A DNA stretch of 64,000 nt from Escherichia phage FEC19, in sequence record MH816966, one strand, 5' to 3'. Positions 1,447 through 61,522 of this stretch are shown in pieces. Below the pieces are notes generated by a model. It worked only from the letters and a program-made list of their open reading frames with translations. It was not told the DNA's origin and did not search any database. Each line of letters starts with the position of its first letter. The stretch's first letter is position 1. The position numbers and the translations under genes were made by a program.

Positions 1447-1920
1447 CTAGTGGCGGGAGAATTGCTCACCCTCTTTGGCCGCCTCTCCAAAATCCTTGTA
1501 GAAATCATCCATGGAACGGCCCATTTTACTATTGCCGTTTTCATCAATCATTGTGATGCCGTAGATGATATTCAGTTCACGAATGGCATTAAGCTTGGCT
1601 GACGCCGCGACTTCTGGATCACGCACAAGCTTCACTAAATTGTGGATGGAACTCTTTACGCTCCACAATTCTTTCAATGGCATCTCTTCCATACGCTTTT
1701 TGTAGCGCATCTTGTAGTACGGATTGCGCTGAGTGCAGAGGATTCGCTGGCCAGTGTAGTTATCGGTCGCAACCTCCATGCCAAATACTAGTGCAAAAGC
1801 TGCGCGCATGTCATGTCCCTGAATAACAAGGTCAATGAACTCATCGAATAACGCCTGATTATGCTCTGCAAATCGTGGGTCTTCAAAGTCTTCAGGCATT
1901 GCTACATAATCTTGACTCAT
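1447..1920 (-). CDS. hypothetical protein (start moved to internal Met MSQDYV)
   Basis: ORF 1447..2115 trimmed; sigma70-like promoter (TTGAAT / TGTATAAT) at ~1965-1995 lies inside the longer ORF. Confidence 0.5.
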   Translation of the reverse strand: MSQDYVAMPEDFEDPRFAEHNQALFDEFIDLVIQGHDMRAAFALVFGMEVATDNYTGQRILCTQRNPYYKMRYKKRMEEMPLKELWSVKSSIHNLVKLVRDPEVAASAKLNAIRELNIIYGITMIDENGNSKMGRSMDDFYKDFGEAAKEGEQFSRH

Positions 1921-56474: not shown

Positions 56475-58850
56475 TCAACCTTGCTTCGGTGAATTAGTAG
56501 GATTATTGAGTGCTCCGTATGCTTGAGAGCAATCACCCTTCAACCACTCTTTGAATGAGTTCACATCTAATTCGTGGATTGAGTCGAATCCGTTCCAACC
56601 GTTACCAAATGATGCCTGATAAGCTTCTTTTGCTTCTTCTGCTGAATCGAATCCAAGCATGCACTTGTGTTCATCGAACTCGCCAGAGTAGTTATCGTTT
56701 TGGTTCACGATAAAGACCTTCGGCGACTTCAGATTTGTGCCAACAAAGCAGTCGACTTCATCGCCGTCCGCGCCCTTGGTGCCTTTGATGAATCCGTAGT
56801 GGTGCGGCATCTTGACTGCCCATTCACCGTCAAGGCTGTTTCCTCTACGGATGCTGTTGCGAGGATTCTCAATCCCAAGAATCAGCCCATGCAACTTCAT
56901 CTTAGGTAATGATGCTGCGTCCATCTTTCCAACGTTGTGTCGTAAGTTGACGACATTACCTTTGACGCTTGGAAGGGTAGACGGTTGCACCGACCGTGAA
57001 TCTTTTTGAGGGTCAAAATCCACATCCTGACCTTCTTTCAGGTAGTAATCCGCAATACCCTCCAGACCTTCTTTCAACTGCGTTAGGACATCAACCTGAT
57101 GGCTTGATTCATCGTCGGTATCGTCCATGTTGATTTCGACAGGCGCTCTGTCAGGGTTTTCCGCCAACTCACCGCGCGCGGCACCTTCTGGCATAATGCC
57201 TGTTTCACTGTAGAACTGGCCGCCCATCTTAACGACATCAGCTTTCGCCTGTTCAATATCGGCCTTACCTTGTAGGACTTCACCAGCAGACTTGCCAAGC
57301 AATGCCATATTCTCTGGAGACATCCCTGGTGTTTCTTCTGCCGCATCTTCCGGCAGACGGTTGTAGCCGCTGTTTTTGTCGTCTTTGATGCGGTCGCGCT
57401 CTTCATCAGGAGAAATGACGCCAGCATCAATAAGAGTTTTGCCAGTGTTGGCTCGCTTATCATTGATTTCTGCAAGTTGAGTAGCAGTAAGTGAGCCAAC
57501 TGGTTCCCATGCAACCTTAACATCGACATCCACCCCTTCTGATTTGAGAAGGATTTTGTAATGGCGGTCGAGAATTTTTGTCAGGTCATGCTGCTGGCAC
57601 GTTTCCAACTCTTCGTGATAGCTGACCATCTCGAATTCACCAGTGGCGTTAAAGCCTTTTGGCGAAGTCCCAAGCAGTTTGGTCGACGGAACTTTTGCGA
57701 TTGCGGCCACCAGCTGGTACTGGTTCATGATGATGCTGTCGAAGTCTGACAAGTTGATATCAAACTGGTCCATCTCTTCTTTTTGGCCAAGCACTTTGAC
57801 TGCATAGTTGTCGCGGTACTTGATCCACATCATCAGACGTTCTGCAAAAGACCGCTCATTGGCAATCGCCTTGTCAACGTCGGTCCGCAGCGTGGTTGTA
57901 CGCTTGGACATCGCCAGCAATGGCGCTTCGTTAGCGGTACGTTCAGCGGCATAGATGCGTTCATAAATCTGCTGAGTCAGAGGAATGCCGCCGTAAATAT
58001 AAGTTGGCTTGAGAATATCAGCTGGCTCATCATTGCGCAAGATGATGAGGTGACTTCGATGATAACGTTGTCCACTGATCACCCAGTATTCTGGATCATA
58101 GAAGTGCTGTGATGCAGGGTCGGCGGTGTTTTCAGACGTCAAAAATGGCATCATCCAATAAGGGTCGACCTGAATGATTCCCTTATAAGACCCCTTTGTC
58201 ACACCATCAATGTTAAAAGGCTTGCTGTAATATTCTGGGTCATCGCTACGCACATCAAATATGATGACGCGGATACCAAAAATATTTTTGAATCGTTCGG
58301 CTTCAACTAAGTGCTCTTTGATATTAAATTCTTTATCAATTTGCTTTAGGCGTTCGCTTGCCTGTACTGACAATTCTGACTCAGAACTGGATTTGACTTC
58401 CCATCCTTTACGGACCGCATCGCGGCCTACCATGGAACAAGCCTTGTTCACCAGCCAGTGCTGCGCGATGATGGCGCAAGCTTGATATCCGATAAATGAT
58501 TGCGATAAGTACCAGTTTTGCAACTGAATAGGTACTGTGTATGGGTTGACTTGCCCTTCTGAACTGATGTTCTTTAAGGCATTATCCATAACTTTTTTGG
58601 ATACTGTTGCGGAATCGACTGAGCGACCTTTTATGATTGCAACACCATCGCCATTAATATCAGGCTCATATAAAGGGAAGTCATCAACCGTTTTAAAGGT
58701 CGGTCGATTGCTTTCAGTCTTTTCCCAGCGTTGACCGCTGCCGCGCCTTTCAAGGCGTTCAAACGGTGCCAATGGGTCGCCTGGCGGCATCTCCGCTGGT
58801 TCGGCTTCTGGTTGCGTCTTCTCCCAGAGTTTTATGCCAAGAATTTTCAT
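56475..58850 (-). CDS. portal protein with C-terminal extension
   Basis: 792 aa between terminase and MuF; AGGTGG RBS before trimmed start MKILGIK. Confidence 0.65.
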   Translation of the reverse strand: MKILGIKLWEKTQPEAEPAEMPPGDPLAPFERLERRGSGQRWEKTESNRPTFKTVDDFPLYEPDINGDGVAIIKGRSVDSATVSKKVMDNALKNISSEGQVNPYTVPIQLQNWYLSQSFIGYQACAIIAQHWLVNKACSMVGRDAVRKGWEVKSSSESELSVQASERLKQIDKEFNIKEHLVEAERFKNIFGIRVIIFDVRSDDPEYYSKPFNIDGVTKGSYKGIIQVDPYWMMPFLTSENTADPASQHFYDPEYWVISGQRYHRSHLIILRNDEPADILKPTYIYGGIPLTQQIYERIYAAERTANEAPLLAMSKRTTTLRTDVDKAIANERSFAERLMMWIKYRDNYAVKVLGQKEEMDQFDINLSDFDSIIMNQYQLVAAIAKVPSTKLLGTSPKGFNATGEFEMVSYHEELETCQQHDLTKILDRHYKILLKSEGVDVDVKVAWEPVGSLTATQLAEINDKRANTGKTLIDAGVISPDEERDRIKDDKNSGYNRLPEDAAEETPGMSPENMALLGKSAGEVLQGKADIEQAKADVVKMGGQFYSETGIMPEGAARGELAENPDRAPVEINMDDTDDESSHQVDVLTQLKEGLEGIADYYLKEGQDVDFDPQKDSRSVQPSTLPSVKGNVVNLRHNVGKMDAASLPKMKLHGLILGIENPRNSIRRGNSLDGEWAVKMPHHYGFIKGTKGADGDEVDCFVGTNLKSPKVFIVNQNDNYSGEFDEHKCMLGFDSAEEAKEAYQASFGNGWNGFDSIHELDVNSFKEWLKGDCSQAYGALNNPTNSPKQG

Positions 58851-58956
58851 TGTTAACGCCACCTGACAGTGAAAGGGAATCAATCTATATTATAAATATT
58901 CATGTGTTTGTAAGCAAATGATATGTATGGTGATCATAAATAGTTCATAAAATATT

Positions 58957-58985
58957 TTGCTTTTGTATCATTTTGAGTTATATTT
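58957..58985 (+). promoter_or_regulatory. sigma70-like promoter (TTGCTT-17-TATATT) for opposite-strand cassette
   Basis: AT-rich gap; AAAGGAGA RBS before ATG 59013. Confidence 0.45.
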
Positions 58986-59012
58986 TAGTTAACCAAACGA
59001 AAGGAGATTGAA

Positions 59013-59429
59013 ATGAGCACAACAATTGTATTTGTCGTCCTACACAACGGCGAAGTCGTTAACGTATGCGAATATGAAGAACTGGCAAAGGCCACTGCTG
59101 CGCGATACGAAGGTGCTACTATTGACCCGTGGATTTTAGATGCGCGCAACGTCTTGCAGGCGACTTTGGATGAGTGGCTGTTGGGTCGCAAAGTCTATCC
59201 AGTAGACGACATCGACTCAATTCAAGGTGAAACAGTATATTTTGAAGATGAATGCGTTCGCGGCATCGGCAAATTTATGGGATTGTGCCCATCTTCATCC
59301 AAAAATAAATTTTATCGTATTCAAGTTGAAGAAAACGATATGTTTGACAAAGTTACGCGCTCGATTGTTCCTGACGGCGGCACTCCAATCTTTATGGCAG
59401 AATCAGACATCAAGGGGATCATCAAATGA
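59013..59429 (+). CDS. hypothetical protein in opposite-strand cassette
   Basis: 138-aa ORF with strong RBS. Confidence 0.5.
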   Translation: MSTTIVFVVLHNGEVVNVCEYEELAKATAARYEGATIDPWILDARNVLQATLDEWLLGRKVYPVDDIDSIQGETVYFEDECVRGIGKFMGLCPSSSKNKFYRIQVEENDMFDKVTRSIVPDGGTPIFMAESDIKGIIK

Positions 59430-59665
59430 GAACGTTAACCGAACTCGATGTTTTGAAAGACGTTGCAGCCGCGCTGGGCGTAGAATTATCCGAAAAGGCG
59501 ACACTAGGTGCTTTGCGTCGGGATTTACTCGAAGCTGTTGACCGCAACGATTTTGACCGTAAGTGTATGCAAAAGAAGATTCGGCAGGCGGTGAGAGCGG
59601 GTAAGCGATTCCGTGCCAGGTCGTTTGCCGCAAGAAAGCTTGACCTTCAGCACGGAATGCTTTGA
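59426..59665 (+). CDS. hypothetical basic protein in opposite-strand cassette
   Basis: 79-aa ORF; start overlaps upstream stop. Confidence 0.45.
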   Translation: MRTLTELDVLKDVAAALGVELSEKATLGALRRDLLEAVDRNDFDRKCMQKKIRQAVRAGKRFRARSFAARKLDLQHGML

Positions 59666-59668
59666 TTG

Positions 59669-61129
59669 TTAAAGGTTAGAGAAGAAGCCGGATGCTGCAA
59701 CGATTGGTTTCATCAATGCCATGATTGCTGCGTCCGCTTTGTTAGGTGATTTGACTCCACGCTTTGCCATATCCTTTTTGGATTCAACTTTGAACTTGCC
59801 AAGAACAGACGTATCTTTGCGCGGCGCTGACATCTCAAAAAGAAACGTCTCAATCTCTTCAGTAGTCCAAGCTGGAATCCCAAGTTCCGGTATACCATCG
59901 GTGTCGATTGAAATCAATTCATCAGTCGGATATACGGCTTGCCCAGTTGCATATTCGTATGTCTTTCTGAATCTCTCTGCAATTTCAGTCCACTTTTGCG
60001 CTTTTATGTTTGCGAAATGGTCTTTATTGAGTATTTCAACGTGTGGTAGCTCAAGAAAAACGTCATCAGGATCATCAACAGACCCTTGCGCGTTGAACGC
60101 ATTAAATTCGATTCTTGGAAATGATGGATTTTCATGTATTGCATACTCGTTTAGTTCATCAAACTTTGAACCAGCAAAAGCGCCGACACCGATGGCGTCA
60201 TAAGTTATGGAAGCGCCGAATGTAAGCGCATCTTTCCAAACTCCGCTTGCCGATTTCAACAATTCATCTTCCAGGCCTTCCCACGTCTTGATGCCGCGCA
60301 ATACGTTTCCTGTGACGAATGCAGTGGCGTTAAGGTCGTCGCCATCGTCCGCTACGTCAAAGCCTATACGGTTAGACCCTGACAAACTCCAGCCCAGCGT
60401 TGGGTGCTTGTGGAGATTAAGCGCGGCCTTAACGAATGCGCGGTTGATTACAGATTTGTCGCCGCCAGTCTTCGGCACGCCGCCATAAACGTGCTCTGCC
60501 TTTTTCGGGTCACGCTCGTACATGCCTGCAATAACGTCCAACATTGTTTGCGACAAGAATGGATTATCTTGCCAGTTTATCTTTTTAACAATTGCATTCT
60601 TCGGCGGTCGCATAACAAAGTTTTGATATACGAAATCGGCCTCTTCATCAGGGTTAAAGATGATCCATATTTCGGACCCTTCTTTACGTATTGTCGGCTC
60701 AATAATGTCCCACTGTTCTTCAGTAAGCGCGTGCGCTTCTTCCAGCCAAAGAACATCAACGCCTTCTGTTGATTTGATTTCATCAACGTTACGTGCGATA
60801 CCATAAAATAGAAATTCAGATTTAGTTCTTTTGTGTTCGATAGAGTTCTTTAATAAATTGAACTCATCTTTAAAATCAGAAATCTCTATTTTGTCTTTTA
60901 ATAGTGTATATACAGATTCAGAAATCTTGTTCTGGAATTGTCGAACGCAAAGGAATTTTAATTTGAAGTTTGCCGCCAAATAAATAGCAAAACCAGCGGC
61001 ATCGTGCGATTTGGAAGATGCACGACCGCCGTATATTACTTTGTATCGCGCTTTTGTCTTCCAGACTTCTTTTAAAGCAGGATTCAACTGGTACATGAAT
61101 TTCCAATTATGTGTTAATATTTTATTCAT
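59669..61129 (-). CDS. terL: terminase large subunit
   Basis: Walker A YKVIYGGRASSKS; acidic nuclease-like C-terminal half. Confidence 0.85.
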   Translation of the reverse strand: MNKILTHNWKFMYQLNPALKEVWKTKARYKVIYGGRASSKSHDAAGFAIYLAANFKLKFLCVRQFQNKISESVYTLLKDKIEISDFKDEFNLLKNSIEHKRTKSEFLFYGIARNVDEIKSTEGVDVLWLEEAHALTEEQWDIIEPTIRKEGSEIWIIFNPDEEADFVYQNFVMRPPKNAIVKKINWQDNPFLSQTMLDVIAGMYERDPKKAEHVYGGVPKTGGDKSVINRAFVKAALNLHKHPTLGWSLSGSNRIGFDVADDGDDLNATAFVTGNVLRGIKTWEGLEDELLKSASGVWKDALTFGASITYDAIGVGAFAGSKFDELNEYAIHENPSFPRIEFNAFNAQGSVDDPDDVFLELPHVEILNKDHFANIKAQKWTEIAERFRKTYEYATGQAVYPTDELISIDTDGIPELGIPAWTTEEIETFLFEMSAPRKDTSVLGKFKVESKKDMAKRGVKSPNKADAAIMALMKPIVAASGFFSNL

Positions 61130-61205
61130 ATTATAGTTTGCTTGTACAAGCTATATCAAGTAAAATTATGATTCCAGCTTAGTAGTGGATAAAGGGTGAT
61201 CTTTC

Positions 61206-61232
61206 GGCCAGATTTTTTCTGGCCATTTTTTT
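61206..61232 (+). terminator. stem-loop with T-run (ggccagattttttctggcc attttttt)
   Basis: Inverted repeat read directly; orientation uncertain. Confidence 0.35.
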
Positions 61233-61252
61233 GATTAAAATTCACAAAAAGT

Positions 61253-61280
61253 TTGCCTTTCTGAAACTCTGCGTTATAAT
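61253..61280 (+). promoter_or_regulatory. sigma70-like promoter (TTGCCT-16-TATAAT) for right-end plus-strand genes
   Basis: Consensus -10 and near-consensus -35. Confidence 0.55.
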
Positions 61281-61306
61281 CATATTAACTCAAAACCGGA
61301 GGTAAT

Positions 61307-61522
61307 ATGAAACTCATCGACCGTGCCATCAAAGCCATAGATAACCATTCCACAGCTATTGCATTTGTAATGGGATTCTGTTTTACTGCTGCGTTTGGCG
61401 ACGTTCACACATTCAAGTCTGTCATCTTGTGCTGGTCTATCTGGTCCCTCATTTCTCTGGTTTTGATTCTTCCGATGACGTGGCTTATCCTTACTTGTCT
61501 GGAATCTCAAGGTGAAGACTGA
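61307..61522 (+). CDS. small membrane protein (two hydrophobic segments), holin candidate
   Basis: 71 aa with two hydrophobic stretches. Confidence 0.4.
   Translation: MKLIDRAIKAIDNHSTAIAFVMGFCFTAAFGDVHTFKSVILCWSIWSLISLVLILPMTWLILTCLESQGED

What the first reader, a model, noticed from the sequence alone, without database searches (positions are those of the whole stretch)
58890..59669. Opposite-strand two-gene cassette between portal and terminase
Two plus-strand genes (59013..59429 and 59426..59665) with their own AT-rich promoter and strong RBS interrupt the minus-strand terminase-portal arrangement, which is normally contiguous. Inserted, independently transcribed cassettes in structural modules are typical morons and often encode anti-defence, exclusion or toxin-antitoxin functions. 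Neither protein has a motif I can recognise.
Basis: partly seen in the sequence, partly recalled or inferred. Interest (0 to 1): 0.6.

Follow-up and report, generated by a model that had tools for sequence, protein, structure and literature searches.

The report
Conserved two-gene unit between terminase and portal
The two opposite-strand genes are real and independently transcribed, but they are what is left of an old block of small non-structural genes that all PB1-like phages carry between terminase and portal, not a recent insertion, and their function remains unknown.

Summary
The window is a Wifcevirus, an E. coli myovirus related to Pseudomonas phage PB1. The two plus-strand ORFs exist exactly as described (59013..59429, 138 aa; 59426..59665, 79 aa). 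Both are under strong purifying selection (dN/dS 0.09 and 0.05). They have a sigma70-like promoter conserved in position across genera, a good ribosome-binding site, and a conserved hairpin with a U-rich tail at the 3' end.

They are not a variable insert. Both genes are in all 27 Wifcevirus records, and their GC content matches the genome. The same slot holds opposite-strand genes in Pantoea phage Kyle (5), four metagenomic relatives (4-7), Erwinia phage TropicalSun (8) and PB1/14-1 (13).

ORF1 belongs to the PB1 gp17 family (phrog_5124) and, wherever it occurs, is the first gene diverging from portal. ORF2 belongs to a narrow family found in the same block of the enterobacterial relatives. 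Wifcevirus looks like a deletion derivative that kept only these two genes.

Neither gene is the small terminase, whose homologue (E217 TerS, PDB 7UXE) lies at 1447..1920. Neither product was detected in virion mass spectrometry. No domain, defence or fold library gives a function. ORF1 is acidic with an SH3/Tudor-like barrel; ORF2 is a basic four-helix protein.

Best reading: early-block-type, non-structural accessory proteins. This is an ordinary finding of modest interest.

The parts
58851..59012 (.). AT-rich intergenic control region between portal and ORF1, holding back-to-back divergent promoters
   Evidence: GC is 28%. Identity is 98-100% among 9 Wifcevirus sequences, higher than either flank.
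58957..58984 (+). Predicted sigma70-like promoter of the cassette (-35 TTGCTT 58957..58962, 16-nt spacer, -10 TATATT 58979..58984; transcription start near 58991)
   Evidence: My own scan found it. The same position holds a sigma70-like match in Kyle, L006, L007 and PB1, with L007 scoring 11/12 (TTGACT-16-TATAAT). Alignment A4 shows a conserved TTTGcTTT..TTCCAttt.TGAG.TATAaT. Its -35 matches only 3/6, so the tool's stricter scan did not list it. This is a prediction, not mapped.
58889..58917 (-). Predicted sigma70-like promoter of the portal operon (-35 TTGCTT 58917..58912, -10 TATAAT 58894..58889)
   Evidence: a TATAAT -10 sits at an equivalent position in all six lineages scanned. The PB1 and 14-1 records annotate a sigma70 promoter there.
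59000..59006 (+). Ribosome-binding site AAAGGAG of ORF1
   Evidence: Read directly from the sequence. The Mansfield record annotates a ribosome-binding site at the equivalent position.
59013..59429 (+). ORF1: 138 aa, 15.5 kDa, pI 4.55. Member of the PB1 gp17 / phrog_5124 family. N-terminal beta-beta-alpha-beta unit plus a C-terminal SH3/Sm/Tudor-like barrel.
59426..59665 (+). ORF2: 79 aa, 9.0 kDa, pI 10.3. Four-helix protein with an invariant Cys47 and an Arg/Lys-rich C-terminal part. Its start overlaps the ORF1 stop (ATGA).
   Evidence: ORF. dN/dS is 0.05. Homologues occur in the same block of Kyle, L006, L007, L019 and L020. AlphaFold2 gives pLDDT 79.8. No PDB fold or sequence match.
59603..59672 (+). 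Long hairpin (59603..59662, about -26 kcal/mol) inside the ORF2 3' end, followed by a U-rich run (UUUGAUUGUU) that spans both stop codons. Candidate terminator or 3'-end element of the cassette.
   Evidence: Fold. The arms are invariant in 9 Wifceviruses while the loop varies: 0/12 against 4/7 synonymous sites changed, Fisher p = 0.009. No such hairpin exists at the end of the ORF2 homologue in L019, where that gene is not terminal. PB1 and TropicalSun have canonical terminators at the same junction. The tool's consensus scan did not call it, and the z-score against shuffles is only -1.9.
59669..61129 (-). Large terminase (context). Convergent with ORF2, with the two stop codons 3 nt apart. 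An alternative start at 61096 lies behind an 11/12 sigma70-like promoter at 61159..61130.
56475..58850 (-). Portal protein with a C-terminal InPase domain (context). Divergent from ORF1.
1447..1920 (-). Small terminase homologue (context). It shows that the cassette does not encode TerS.
   Evidence: PB1 gp79 matches the E217 TerS of PDB 7UXE at E 2.8e-121. tblastn of PB1 gp79 hits window 1480..1917 at 39% identity, E 1.8e-35. The start codon was placed from the translation.

Best explanation
ORF1 and ORF2 form a small autonomous operon. It has a predicted host sigma70-type promoter, a ribosome-binding site, two translationally coupled genes and a 3' hairpin with a U-rich tail. The operon is the minimal surviving version of the block of small opposite-strand genes that PB1-like myoviruses carry between the large terminase and the portal.

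In the enterobacterial relatives the order is: ORF1 family, trypsin-like lipoprotein, ORF2 family, one or two further small genes, then a DUF2786/DUF7168 protein. Wifcevirus appears to have deleted everything except the ORF1-family and ORF2-family genes.

Inferred mechanism, not shown: both are cytoplasmic, non-structural proteins of the early accessory gene block. ORF1 is acidic, with an N-terminal beta-alpha unit and an SH3/Tudor/KOW-like barrel, and probably acts as a protein-binding adaptor on a conserved host or phage partner. ORF2 is a basic helical protein with an Arg/Lys-rich tail and probably binds nucleic acid. The hairpin at the ORF2 stop probably ends the cassette transcript, which would keep it from reading antisense into the convergent terminase gene.

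The exact function, whether host takeover, transcription control or anti-defence, is not determined.
For: Shown:
- Real coding genes under purifying selection.
- Present in all 27 Wifcevirus records and in a more diverged Wifcevirus-like contig.
- ORF1 belongs to the PB1/14-1 gp17 family. Pairwise E-values are 2e-8 and 9e-11. The phrog_5124 match is E 5.7e-5, and all 8 aligned members hit that family.
- ORF1-family genes are always the first gene diverging from portal, in 7 lineages.
- ORF2-family genes lie in the same block of 5 enterobacterial relatives, with a fixed gene order.
- The promoter position is conserved across lineages.
- The hairpin arms are invariant at synonymous sites. Relatives have canonical terminators at the same junction.
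- GC content is typical of the genome.
- Mass spectrometry of vB_Eco4M-7 and ECML-117 preparations found the portal protein but not the ORF1 or ORF2 homologues _35 and _34 (PMC7048862).
- In Pbunavirus this block is treated as the 'early genome region'. It includes 14-1 gp12, an RNA-polymerase alpha-subunit binder, and the YIP peptide (PMC8085984; PMC10914365).
- pI is 4.55 for ORF1 and 10.34 for ORF2. Confident models show an SH3-like barrel and a helical bundle.
Against: - Expression timing in Wifcevirus has not been measured. The portal operon also has a sigma70-like promoter, so promoter type does not prove early expression.
- The promoter's -35 matches only 3/6 and is a prediction.
- The hairpin is not a canonical terminator, was missed by the consensus scan, and has a modest z-score of -1.9.
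- ORF1 is absent from Myosmarvirus and BcepF1. ORF2 is absent from those and from Pbunavirus. Neither is therefore a universal core function.
- Binding of nucleic acid by ORF2, or of a protein by ORF1, is inferred from charge and fold class only.
Confidence: 0.55

Rival explanations
1. Anti-defence or superinfection-exclusion moron. The cassette would be an accessory unit acquired to counter host immunity or exclude competitors.
For: - It is an independent opposite-strand unit in a slot whose content differs between genera.
- Neighbouring genes of this block in relatives include lipoprotein or membrane proteins, and one is annotated as putative superinfection immunity.
- Wifceviruses are sensitive to E. 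coli K-12 cryptic prophages, so host immunity matters for them.
- The anti-defence function as such cannot be excluded with the libraries available.
Against: - Both genes are fixed in all 27 Wifceviruses.
- GC content is typical of the genome.
- ORF1 synteny reaches back to Pseudomonas phages.
- PADLOC, Pfam and PHROG gave no hit to any defence or anti-defence family.
- Both proteins lack signal peptides or membrane segments by inspection of the sequences.
- The strong purifying selection is unlike typical arms-race genes.
Confidence: 0.2
2. Packaging or head-assembly accessory factors. Examples would be a second small-terminase-like DNA-recognition protein (ORF2) or a portal/terminase cofactor (ORF1), kept between TerL and portal for that reason.
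For: - The location between TerL and portal is conserved, and ORF1 is always adjacent to portal.
- ORF2 is basic and helical, as are DNA-recognition domains.
- The control region shared with portal is very well conserved.
Against: - The genuine TerS homologue (E217 type, PDB 7UXE) is at 1447..1920.
- ORF1 and ORF2 have no sequence match to any PDB terminase.
- TropicalSun (TerL 66% identical) and BcepF1 (TerL 58.6% identical), which also have an equivalent portal gene, lack both families. PB1 lacks ORF2.
- Neither product was detected in virion preparations.
- The genes are on the opposite strand from all morphogenesis genes.
Confidence: 0.1
3. Toxin-antitoxin-like pair. An acidic and a basic protein, translationally coupled, would form an addiction, abortive or regulatory module.
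For: - The ATGA overlap implies coupled translation.
- The charges are opposite: pI 4.55 and 10.34.
- The sizes are small.
Against: - In all five enterobacterial relatives the two families are separated by a trypsin-like lipoprotein gene or its remnant.
- PB1 has ORF1 without ORF2.
- A recombination breakpoint at 59354..59393 combines ORF1 and ORF2 alleles from different subgroups.
- Pfam, NCBIfam and PADLOC give no toxin or antitoxin family hit.
- The phage is virulent, which gives no obvious role for addiction.
Confidence: 0.05
4. The act of convergent transcription matters more than the proteins. The cassette would act mainly as an antisense or transcription-interference switch on the terminase gene.
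For: - ORF2 and TerL converge with only 3 nt between their stop codons, and the consensus scan found no canonical terminator.
- In Kyle, L006, L007 and L020 the last block gene overlaps the TerL 3' end by 4 nt; in L019 the overlap is 12 nt.
Against: - Both ORFs are under strong purifying selection at the protein level, so the proteins matter.
- A conserved hairpin plus U-rich run sits exactly at the junction. PB1 and TropicalSun have canonical terminators there. Both point to insulation rather than read-through.
Confidence: 0.05

Closest known systems
PB1 gp17 / 14-1 gp17 (ORF16), PHROG family phrog_5124, function unknown
   Same: - ORF1 matches the family profile (E 5.7e-5) and PB1 gp17 pairwise (E 2e-8) over its full length.
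- The size is similar: 138 against 133 aa.
- The position is the same: first gene diverging from the portal gene, behind a sigma70-like promoter.
   Different: - Identity is only about 24-27%.
- In PB1 the gene heads a 13-gene block; here it heads a 2-gene block.
- No function is known for the family, so membership explains ancestry but not mechanism.
The 'early genome region' of Pbunavirus between terminase and portal (14-1 gp04-gp17, including the RNA-polymerase alpha-subunit binder gp12 and the YfiN-interacting peptide YIP)
   Same: - It occupies the same slot and orientation relative to TerL and portal, and consists of small genes of mostly unknown function.
- The literature treats it as an early host-interaction region (PMC8085984; PMC10914365).
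   Different: - Wifcevirus keeps 2 genes instead of 13-14.
- It has no homologue of gp12, of YIP, or of the DUF2786 protein (PB1 gp09).
- ORF2 has no Pbunavirus counterpart.
Phage morons (independently transcribed accessory units inserted between conserved genes, as defined in lambdoid and HK97-like phages)
   Same: It has its own promoter and 3' hairpin, lies on the opposite strand inside the packaging/head module, and sits in a slot that varies between genera.
   Different: It is not variably present among close relatives, not compositionally distinct, anciently syntenic, and found in a virulent phage.
Small terminase of Pbunavirus E217 (PDB 7UXE)
   Same: ORF2 is small and basic, and it lies next to TerL.
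   Different: There is no sequence similarity. ORF2 is 9 kDa against 21 kDa. The true homologue is encoded about 58 kb away at 1447..1920, as in E217 (PMC9611059).

Membership tests
phrog_5124 / PB1 gp17 family (ORF1) | Significant full-length sequence match to the family profile and its members | tested here: met
   phrog_5124 E 5.7e-5 over residues 4-136. PB1 gp17 E 2e-8 and Kyle gp028 E 9e-11 in pairwise BLASTP. All 8 aligned members hit phrog_5124. A profile built from A1 recovers the PB1 and 14-1 genes at E 5e-40 and 2e-32.
phrog_5124 / PB1 gp17 family (ORF1) | Conserved genomic position: first gene of the opposite-strand block, diverging from portal | tested here: met
   Seen in Wifcevirus, Kyle, L006, L007, L019, L020, PB1 and 14-1.
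ORF2 family (no name; 73-83 aa basic helical proteins of enterobacterial PB1-like phages) | Sequence similarity together with location in the same block | tested here: met
   BLASTP E 2e-8 to 4e-6 against the Kyle, L006 and L007 proteins. L019 is 67% identical at E 3e-38. Alignment A3 shows invariant V13, A15, L17, E23, L35, C47, R63 and A68. A profile search of 5.8 billion proteins finds only 5 clusters.
Small terminase subunit (TerS) | Homology to a known TerS, or being the only candidate in the genome | tested here: not met
   No PDB sequence hit for ORF1 or ORF2, alone or as profiles. A clear E217-type TerS homologue lies elsewhere, at window 1447..1920.
Small terminase subunit (TerS) | Conserved wherever the cognate TerL is conserved | tested here: not met
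   TropicalSun (TerL 66% identical) and BcepF1 (58.6%) lack both families. PB1 (about 63%) lacks ORF2.
Moron | Own promoter and terminator, transcribed independently of the surrounding operon | tested here: met
   Opposite strand; promoter conserved in position; conserved 3' hairpin with U-rich tail. All are predictions from sequence and comparison, with no transcript data.
Moron | Present in some and absent from other closely related phages | tested here: not met
   Present in 27 of 27 Wifcevirus records and in a diverged Wifcevirus-like contig. Content varies only between genera.
Moron | Nucleotide composition different from the host phage genome | tested here: not met
   GC is 44.4% for ORF1 and 50.8% for ORF2, against 46.3% for the window, 42.6% for TerL and 47.5% for portal.
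Type II toxin-antitoxin pair | The two genes are kept adjacent and co-inherited, and at least one matches a known toxin or antitoxin family | tested here: not met
   The families are separated by another gene in all five enterobacterial relatives. ORF1 occurs without ORF2 in PB1. No Pfam, NCBIfam or PADLOC match.
Known anti-phage defence proteins (PADLOC-DB) | Profile match | tested here: not met
   No families at E <= 1 for either protein.
Known anti-defence proteins (Acr, Ocr, Tad, Gad, Acb and others) | Homology or fold match to a characterised inhibitor | not testable with these tools
   No dedicated anti-defence library was available. Pfam, PHROGs, PDB and BFVD gave nothing pointing that way.
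SH3-like / Tudor / KOW / Sm barrel fold (ORF1, C-terminal half) | Structural superposition with small beta-barrel domains | tested here: met
HeH / SAP / Rho_N DNA-binding motif (ORF2, N-terminal half) | Profile match, or fold match to helix-extended loop-helix domains | tested here: inconclusive
   The model shows helix 6-17, loop, helix 27-40. No Pfam SAP, HeH or Rho_N hit appears even at E <= 5, and no Foldseek PDB match has E < 2. The resemblance is my reading of the sequence only.

The most novel reading that the evidence does not exclude
ORF1 and ORF2 are the irreducible core of the PB1-like early block. On this reading ORF1, conserved from Pseudomonas to E. coli phages with a Tudor/KOW-like barrel, would be a new family of phage adaptors that dock onto a conserved host machine such as RNA polymerase, Rho or NusG. 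ORF2 would be a new small nucleic-acid-binding partner. Together they would contribute to the unusually fast takeover reported for Wifcevirus.
Probability: 0.1. Interest if true: 0.6.

Novelty: new member of a known kind. Interest (0 to 1): 0.25.

Why it matters
The result corrects a tempting over-reading. The opposite-strand pair is not a freshly inserted moron. It is the reduced form of a block of small opposite-strand genes found in every PB1-like relative examined except BcepF1.

The comparison yields three practical points:
- The small terminase of Wifcevirus is identified about 58 kb from TerL, so the cassette is not a packaging component.
- The 2-gene Wifcevirus block is a natural minimal version of the 13-gene Pbunavirus block. 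This makes ORF1 (PB1 gp17 family) and ORF2 the first candidates to test for the block's retained function, in a phage group that now grows on engineered E. coli K-12 and can be rebuilt synthetically.
- The 162-bp divergent promoter region and the junction hairpin are compact, conserved control elements that can be tested directly.

Pbunaviruses are widely used in phage therapy, so any function assigned to the gp17 family would carry over to them.

Tried and rejected
- **Small terminase idea:** rejected. TerS was found elsewhere, and the PDB sequence searches for ORF1 and ORF2 were empty or non-significant.
- **Domain libraries:** Pfam, NCBIfam and PADLOC scans of both proteins and of all family members gave only sub-threshold noise: Ubiquitin_TPR1 0.02, JIP_LZII 0.09, WGR 0.11, CarD_TRCF_RID 0.18, RodZ 0.079.
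- **phrog_2130 hit of ORF2 (E 0.0035):** seen only for the two Wifcevirus sequences, not for other family members. I treated it as chance.
- **Exhaustive HMMER of ORF1 against 1.84 billion representatives:** only 4 true relatives, plus one spurious repeat protein, P0014.
- **IMG/VR scans with P0012 and P0015:** no loci.
- **Rfam scan of 58500..61400:** no RNA family.
- **Antisense read-through into TerL:** I considered this first because the consensus scan found no terminator. I downgraded it after finding the conserved hairpin plus U-rich tail.
- **Repeated early-promoter motif in the window:** no hits, but my pattern had a spacing error relative to the window's own copy, so this is uninformative.
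- **Gabija paper on Pbunavirus:** it concerns orf54 (a Gam-like protein), not this block.
- **14-1 ONT-cappable-seq supplements:** the promoter, terminator and transcription-unit tables are not held as text. I could not check the mapped transcription start for gp17.
Full report
**Identity of the window.** The 3.2-kb region around the finding is 93-97% identical to 27 phage records of the genus Wifcevirus. These are E. coli/Shigella myoviruses such as vB_EcoM_WFC, WFH, ECML-117, vB_Eco4M-7, Mansfield and BASEL Bas98-101. The terminase is about 70% identical at the nucleotide level to Pantoea phage Kyle, with weaker matches to about 300 Pseudomonas PB1-like phages. The BASEL paper describes Wifcevirus as distant relatives of Pbunavirus.

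**Check of the observation.** The two plus-strand ORFs are at exactly the stated coordinates: 59013..59429 (138 aa) and 59426..59665 (79 aa). They overlap in ATGA. They lie between the portal gene (Phage_portal_3 E 3.7e-88, with a C-terminal InPase domain) and the large terminase (Terminase_3 E 3.2e-37), both on the minus strand.

They are genuine genes. Over 9 Wifcevirus sequences dN/dS is 0.09 for ORF1 and 0.05 for ORF2, compared with 0.013 for TerL. The shifted frames of the ORF1 DNA give 1.5 and 3.5. Independent GenBank annotations call both CDSs, always as hypothetical proteins. AAAGGAG lies 6 nt before the ORF1 ATG.

**Control elements.** The portal-ORF1 intergenic region (58851..59012) has 28% GC. 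It is the best-conserved part of the locus: 98-100% identity in the genus, and 97.7% even in a relative whose ORF1 is only 80% identical.

My scan finds TTGCTT-N16-TATATT (58957..58984) pointing to ORF1 and TTGCTT-N17-TATAAT (58917..58889) pointing to portal. Sigma70-like matches occupy the same positions in Kyle, in two metagenomic relatives (L006, L007) and in PB1. The -10 ends 26-32 nt before the ORF1-family ATG in all five. A TATAAT lies 23-38 nt before the portal ATG in all six lineages scanned. Alignment A4 shows the shared TTTGcTTT..TTCCAttt.TGAG.TATAaT block. The PB1 and 14-1 records annotate the portal promoter. These are predictions; the tool's stricter scan did not list the ORF1 promoter because its -35 matches only 3/6.

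**The 3' end.** The ORF2 and TerL stop codons are 3 nt apart, and the consensus scan finds no terminator. Folding shows a 60-nt hairpin (59603..59662, about -26 kcal/mol) inside the ORF2 3' end, followed by UUUGAUUGUU. Several points bear on its role:
- In 9 Wifceviruses the arms are invariant while the loop and the stop codon vary. By my count, 0 of 12 synonymous positions changed in the arms against 4 of 7 in the loop (Fisher p = 0.009).
- The closest non-Wifcevirus ORF2 homologue (L019, 67% identical) is not the last gene of its block and has no such hairpin.
- PB1 and Erwinia phage TropicalSun have canonical GC-stem/U-run terminators at the block-TerL junction.

I read the hairpin as the cassette's terminator or 3'-end element, with moderate confidence. 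Its z-score against shuffles is only -1.9.

**Is it an insertion?** Both genes are present in all 27 Wifcevirus records, at 93.5-99.3% (ORF1) and 93.7-100% (ORF2) amino-acid identity. They are also in a more diverged contig, where the ORF1 product P0007 is 84% identical. GC content is 44% and 51%, close to the window's 46%.

The same slot is occupied by opposite-strand genes in every PB1-like relative examined except one:
- Kyle: 5 genes.
- Metagenomic L006: 6; L007: 7; L019: 4; L020: 5.
- TropicalSun: 8.
- PB1 and 14-1: 13-14.

Only Burkholderia phage BcepF1 (TerL 58.6% identical) has TerL, two small same-strand genes and portal all co-directional. The interruption is therefore the norm in this group and may be derived relative to a BcepF1-like arrangement. 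It is not an event in this phage.

**Ancestry of the two genes.** ORF1 is a homologue of PB1 gp17 (E 2e-8) and Kyle gp028 (E 9e-11). It matches phrog_5124, the PB1 gp17 family, as do all eight aligned members. Wherever it occurs, it is the first gene diverging from portal.

ORF2 looked like a genus orphan in BLAST-type searches. However, it has homologues of 73-79 aa inside the same block of Kyle, L006, L007, L019 and L020. A profile search of 5.8 billion proteins finds only five clusters.

The enterobacterial relatives share this order: ORF1 family, trypsin-like lipoprotein (a 45-aa remnant in L006), ORF2 family, an optional protein of about 100 aa and one of about 170 aa, then DUF2786/DUF7168 (the PB1 gp09 family) ending against TerL. 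Wifcevirus keeps only the ORF1- and ORF2-family genes, now joined by ATGA. It looks like a deletion derivative of this arrangement.

Profile searches of six-frame translations find no ORF1 family in TropicalSun or BcepF1. They find no ORF2 family in PB1, 14-1, TropicalSun or BcepF1.

**What they are not.**
- **Small terminase.** PB1 gp79 is the E217 small terminase (PDB 7UXE, E 2.8e-121). Its homologue in the window lies at 1447..1920 on the minus strand (39% identity, E 1.8e-35). That is about 58 kb from TerL, as reported for E217 (PMC9611059).
- **Virion components.** Mass spectrometry of vB_Eco4M-7 and ECML-117 preparations detected the portal and many structural proteins. It did not detect the ORF1 and ORF2 homologues vB_Eco4M-7_35 and _34, nor their ECML-117 counterparts.
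- **Known defence or toxin families.** PADLOC, NCBIfam and Pfam give nothing significant.
- **Toxin-antitoxin pair.** This is unlikely for three reasons. The families are not adjacent in relatives. PB1 has ORF1 alone. A recombination breakpoint at 59354..59393 joins a WFH-type ORF1 to a WFC-type ORF2 and TerL in this very genome.
- **RNA families.** Rfam finds no RNA family in 58500..61400.

ORF2 (9.0 kDa, pI 10.3) is predicted as four helices (pLDDT 79.8 from a single sequence). It has an invariant Cys47 and an Arg/Lys-rich C-terminal part. It has no fold or sequence match in the PDB. A helix-extended loop-helix (SAP/HeH-like) reading of its N-terminus is my impression only and is not supported by profiles.

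**Most likely mechanism.** Shown: an autonomous, conserved two-gene operon that is the minimal form of the PB1-like opposite-strand block, and whose products were not detected in virions.

Inferred: expression from the host sigma70 holoenzyme. Also inferred, by analogy with the Pbunavirus 'early genome region' that occupies the same slot, is a role early in infection. That region contains the RNA-polymerase alpha-subunit binder 14-1 gp12 and the YfiN-interacting peptide (PMC8085984; PMC10914365).

Also inferred: ORF1 acts as an acidic protein-binding adaptor and ORF2 as a small nucleic-acid-binding protein, with the junction hairpin insulating TerL from antisense transcription. I give 0.55 to this overall package. 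The gene, operon and ancestry parts are near certain; the molecular roles are weak.

Rivals:
- Anti-defence or exclusion accessory: 0.2.
- Packaging or assembly cofactor: 0.1.
- Toxin-antitoxin-like pair: 0.05.
- Transcription-interference switch: 0.05.

**Novelty and verdict.** Both genes are already annotated as hypothetical proteins in about 30 public genomes. One belongs to an existing PHROG family. The architecture is the lineage norm. The finding is best filed as a new member of a known kind: phage accessory genes of unknown function in a variable slot.

The useful additions are the synteny argument, the location of the small terminase, the recognition that ORF2 is not an orphan, the deletion-derivative model, and two testable control elements. 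Interest is 0.25. The most novel reading still open is that the PB1 gp17 family is a conserved adaptor to a core host machine such as RNA polymerase or Rho, with ORF2 as its nucleic-acid-binding partner. I give that about 0.1 probability, and it would merit about 0.6 if true.

Noticed in passing
window 1447..1920 (-): A homologue of the Pbunavirus E217 small terminase (PDB 7UXE), 39% identical to PB1 gp79. It is encoded about 58 kb from the large terminase, as reported for E217. The Wifcevirus annotations I viewed do not name a small terminase near TerL.
   Followed up: yes
window 59354..59393: A recombination breakpoint lies inside the 3' end of ORF1. Left of it (portal, intergenic region, most of ORF1) the window matches WFH/Ro157lw-type phages. 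Right of it (ORF2, TerL) it matches WFC/TH32-type phages. A second small WFC-type patch lies at 58395..58524 in portal.
   Followed up: partly
window 56475..58850 (-): The portal protein carries a C-terminal InPase domain (PF18823, E 8e-46, residues 660-782). The same domain occurs in PHROG families annotated as DarB-like antirestriction, endolysin and large virion proteins. The fusion is also called in relatives L004, L007 and L019.
   Followed up: no
window 59669..61160 (-): TerL is a lone minus-strand gene flanked by plus-strand genes on both sides. It has its own strong sigma70-like promoter (TTGATA-18-TATAAT, 11/12, 61159..61130). That promoter's -10 abuts the upstream ATG (61129), which favours the downstream start at 61096 used in the Mansfield and Bas99 annotations. 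GenBank records disagree on the start codon.
   Followed up: partly
window 61206..61233 (+): A canonical terminator-like hairpin (GGCCAGATTTTTTCTGGCC followed by a T-run) lies in the TerL upstream intergenic region. It is followed by a sigma70-like promoter (61253..61280) for the rightward small genes.
   Followed up: no
L019 7243..7310: In the closest non-Wifcevirus relative, the spacer before the DUF2786 gene repeats the same promoter/leader motif seen before ORF1 (TTTGCTTTACTTTTTCCAT...TATACTTTAGTTATCCAAAC...). This suggests a shared class of promoters within the block. My pattern search for further copies in the window was flawed by a spacing error.
   Followed up: partly
L018 (Burkholderia phage BcepF1) 12367..14315: BcepF1 has TerL, two small same-strand genes and portal all co-directional. 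The opposite-strand block is therefore missing from the most distant relative examined.
   Followed up: partly
L017 (Erwinia phage TropicalSun) 4901..5242: The annotated gp9 (113 aa, GTG start, 3 nt from the portal start) looks like a doubtful gene call. This phage has the DUF2786, ~100-aa and ~170-aa block families but no ORF1 or ORF2 family member.
   Followed up: partly
P0008 (metagenomic contig, 17.9 kb): This is a 156-aa variant of ORF1, identical to it up to residue ~96. It then continues in the +1 frame that corresponds to window ORF 59227..59541. It is probably a sequencing or assembly frameshift.
   Followed up: no
window 58919..58938: A short inverted repeat (ATGAT-N10-ATCAT, including TGATCA) lies between the two divergent -35 boxes. 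Part of it (GTAAGCAAATGATATGTAT) is also conserved in L006. It could be an operator.
   Followed up: no
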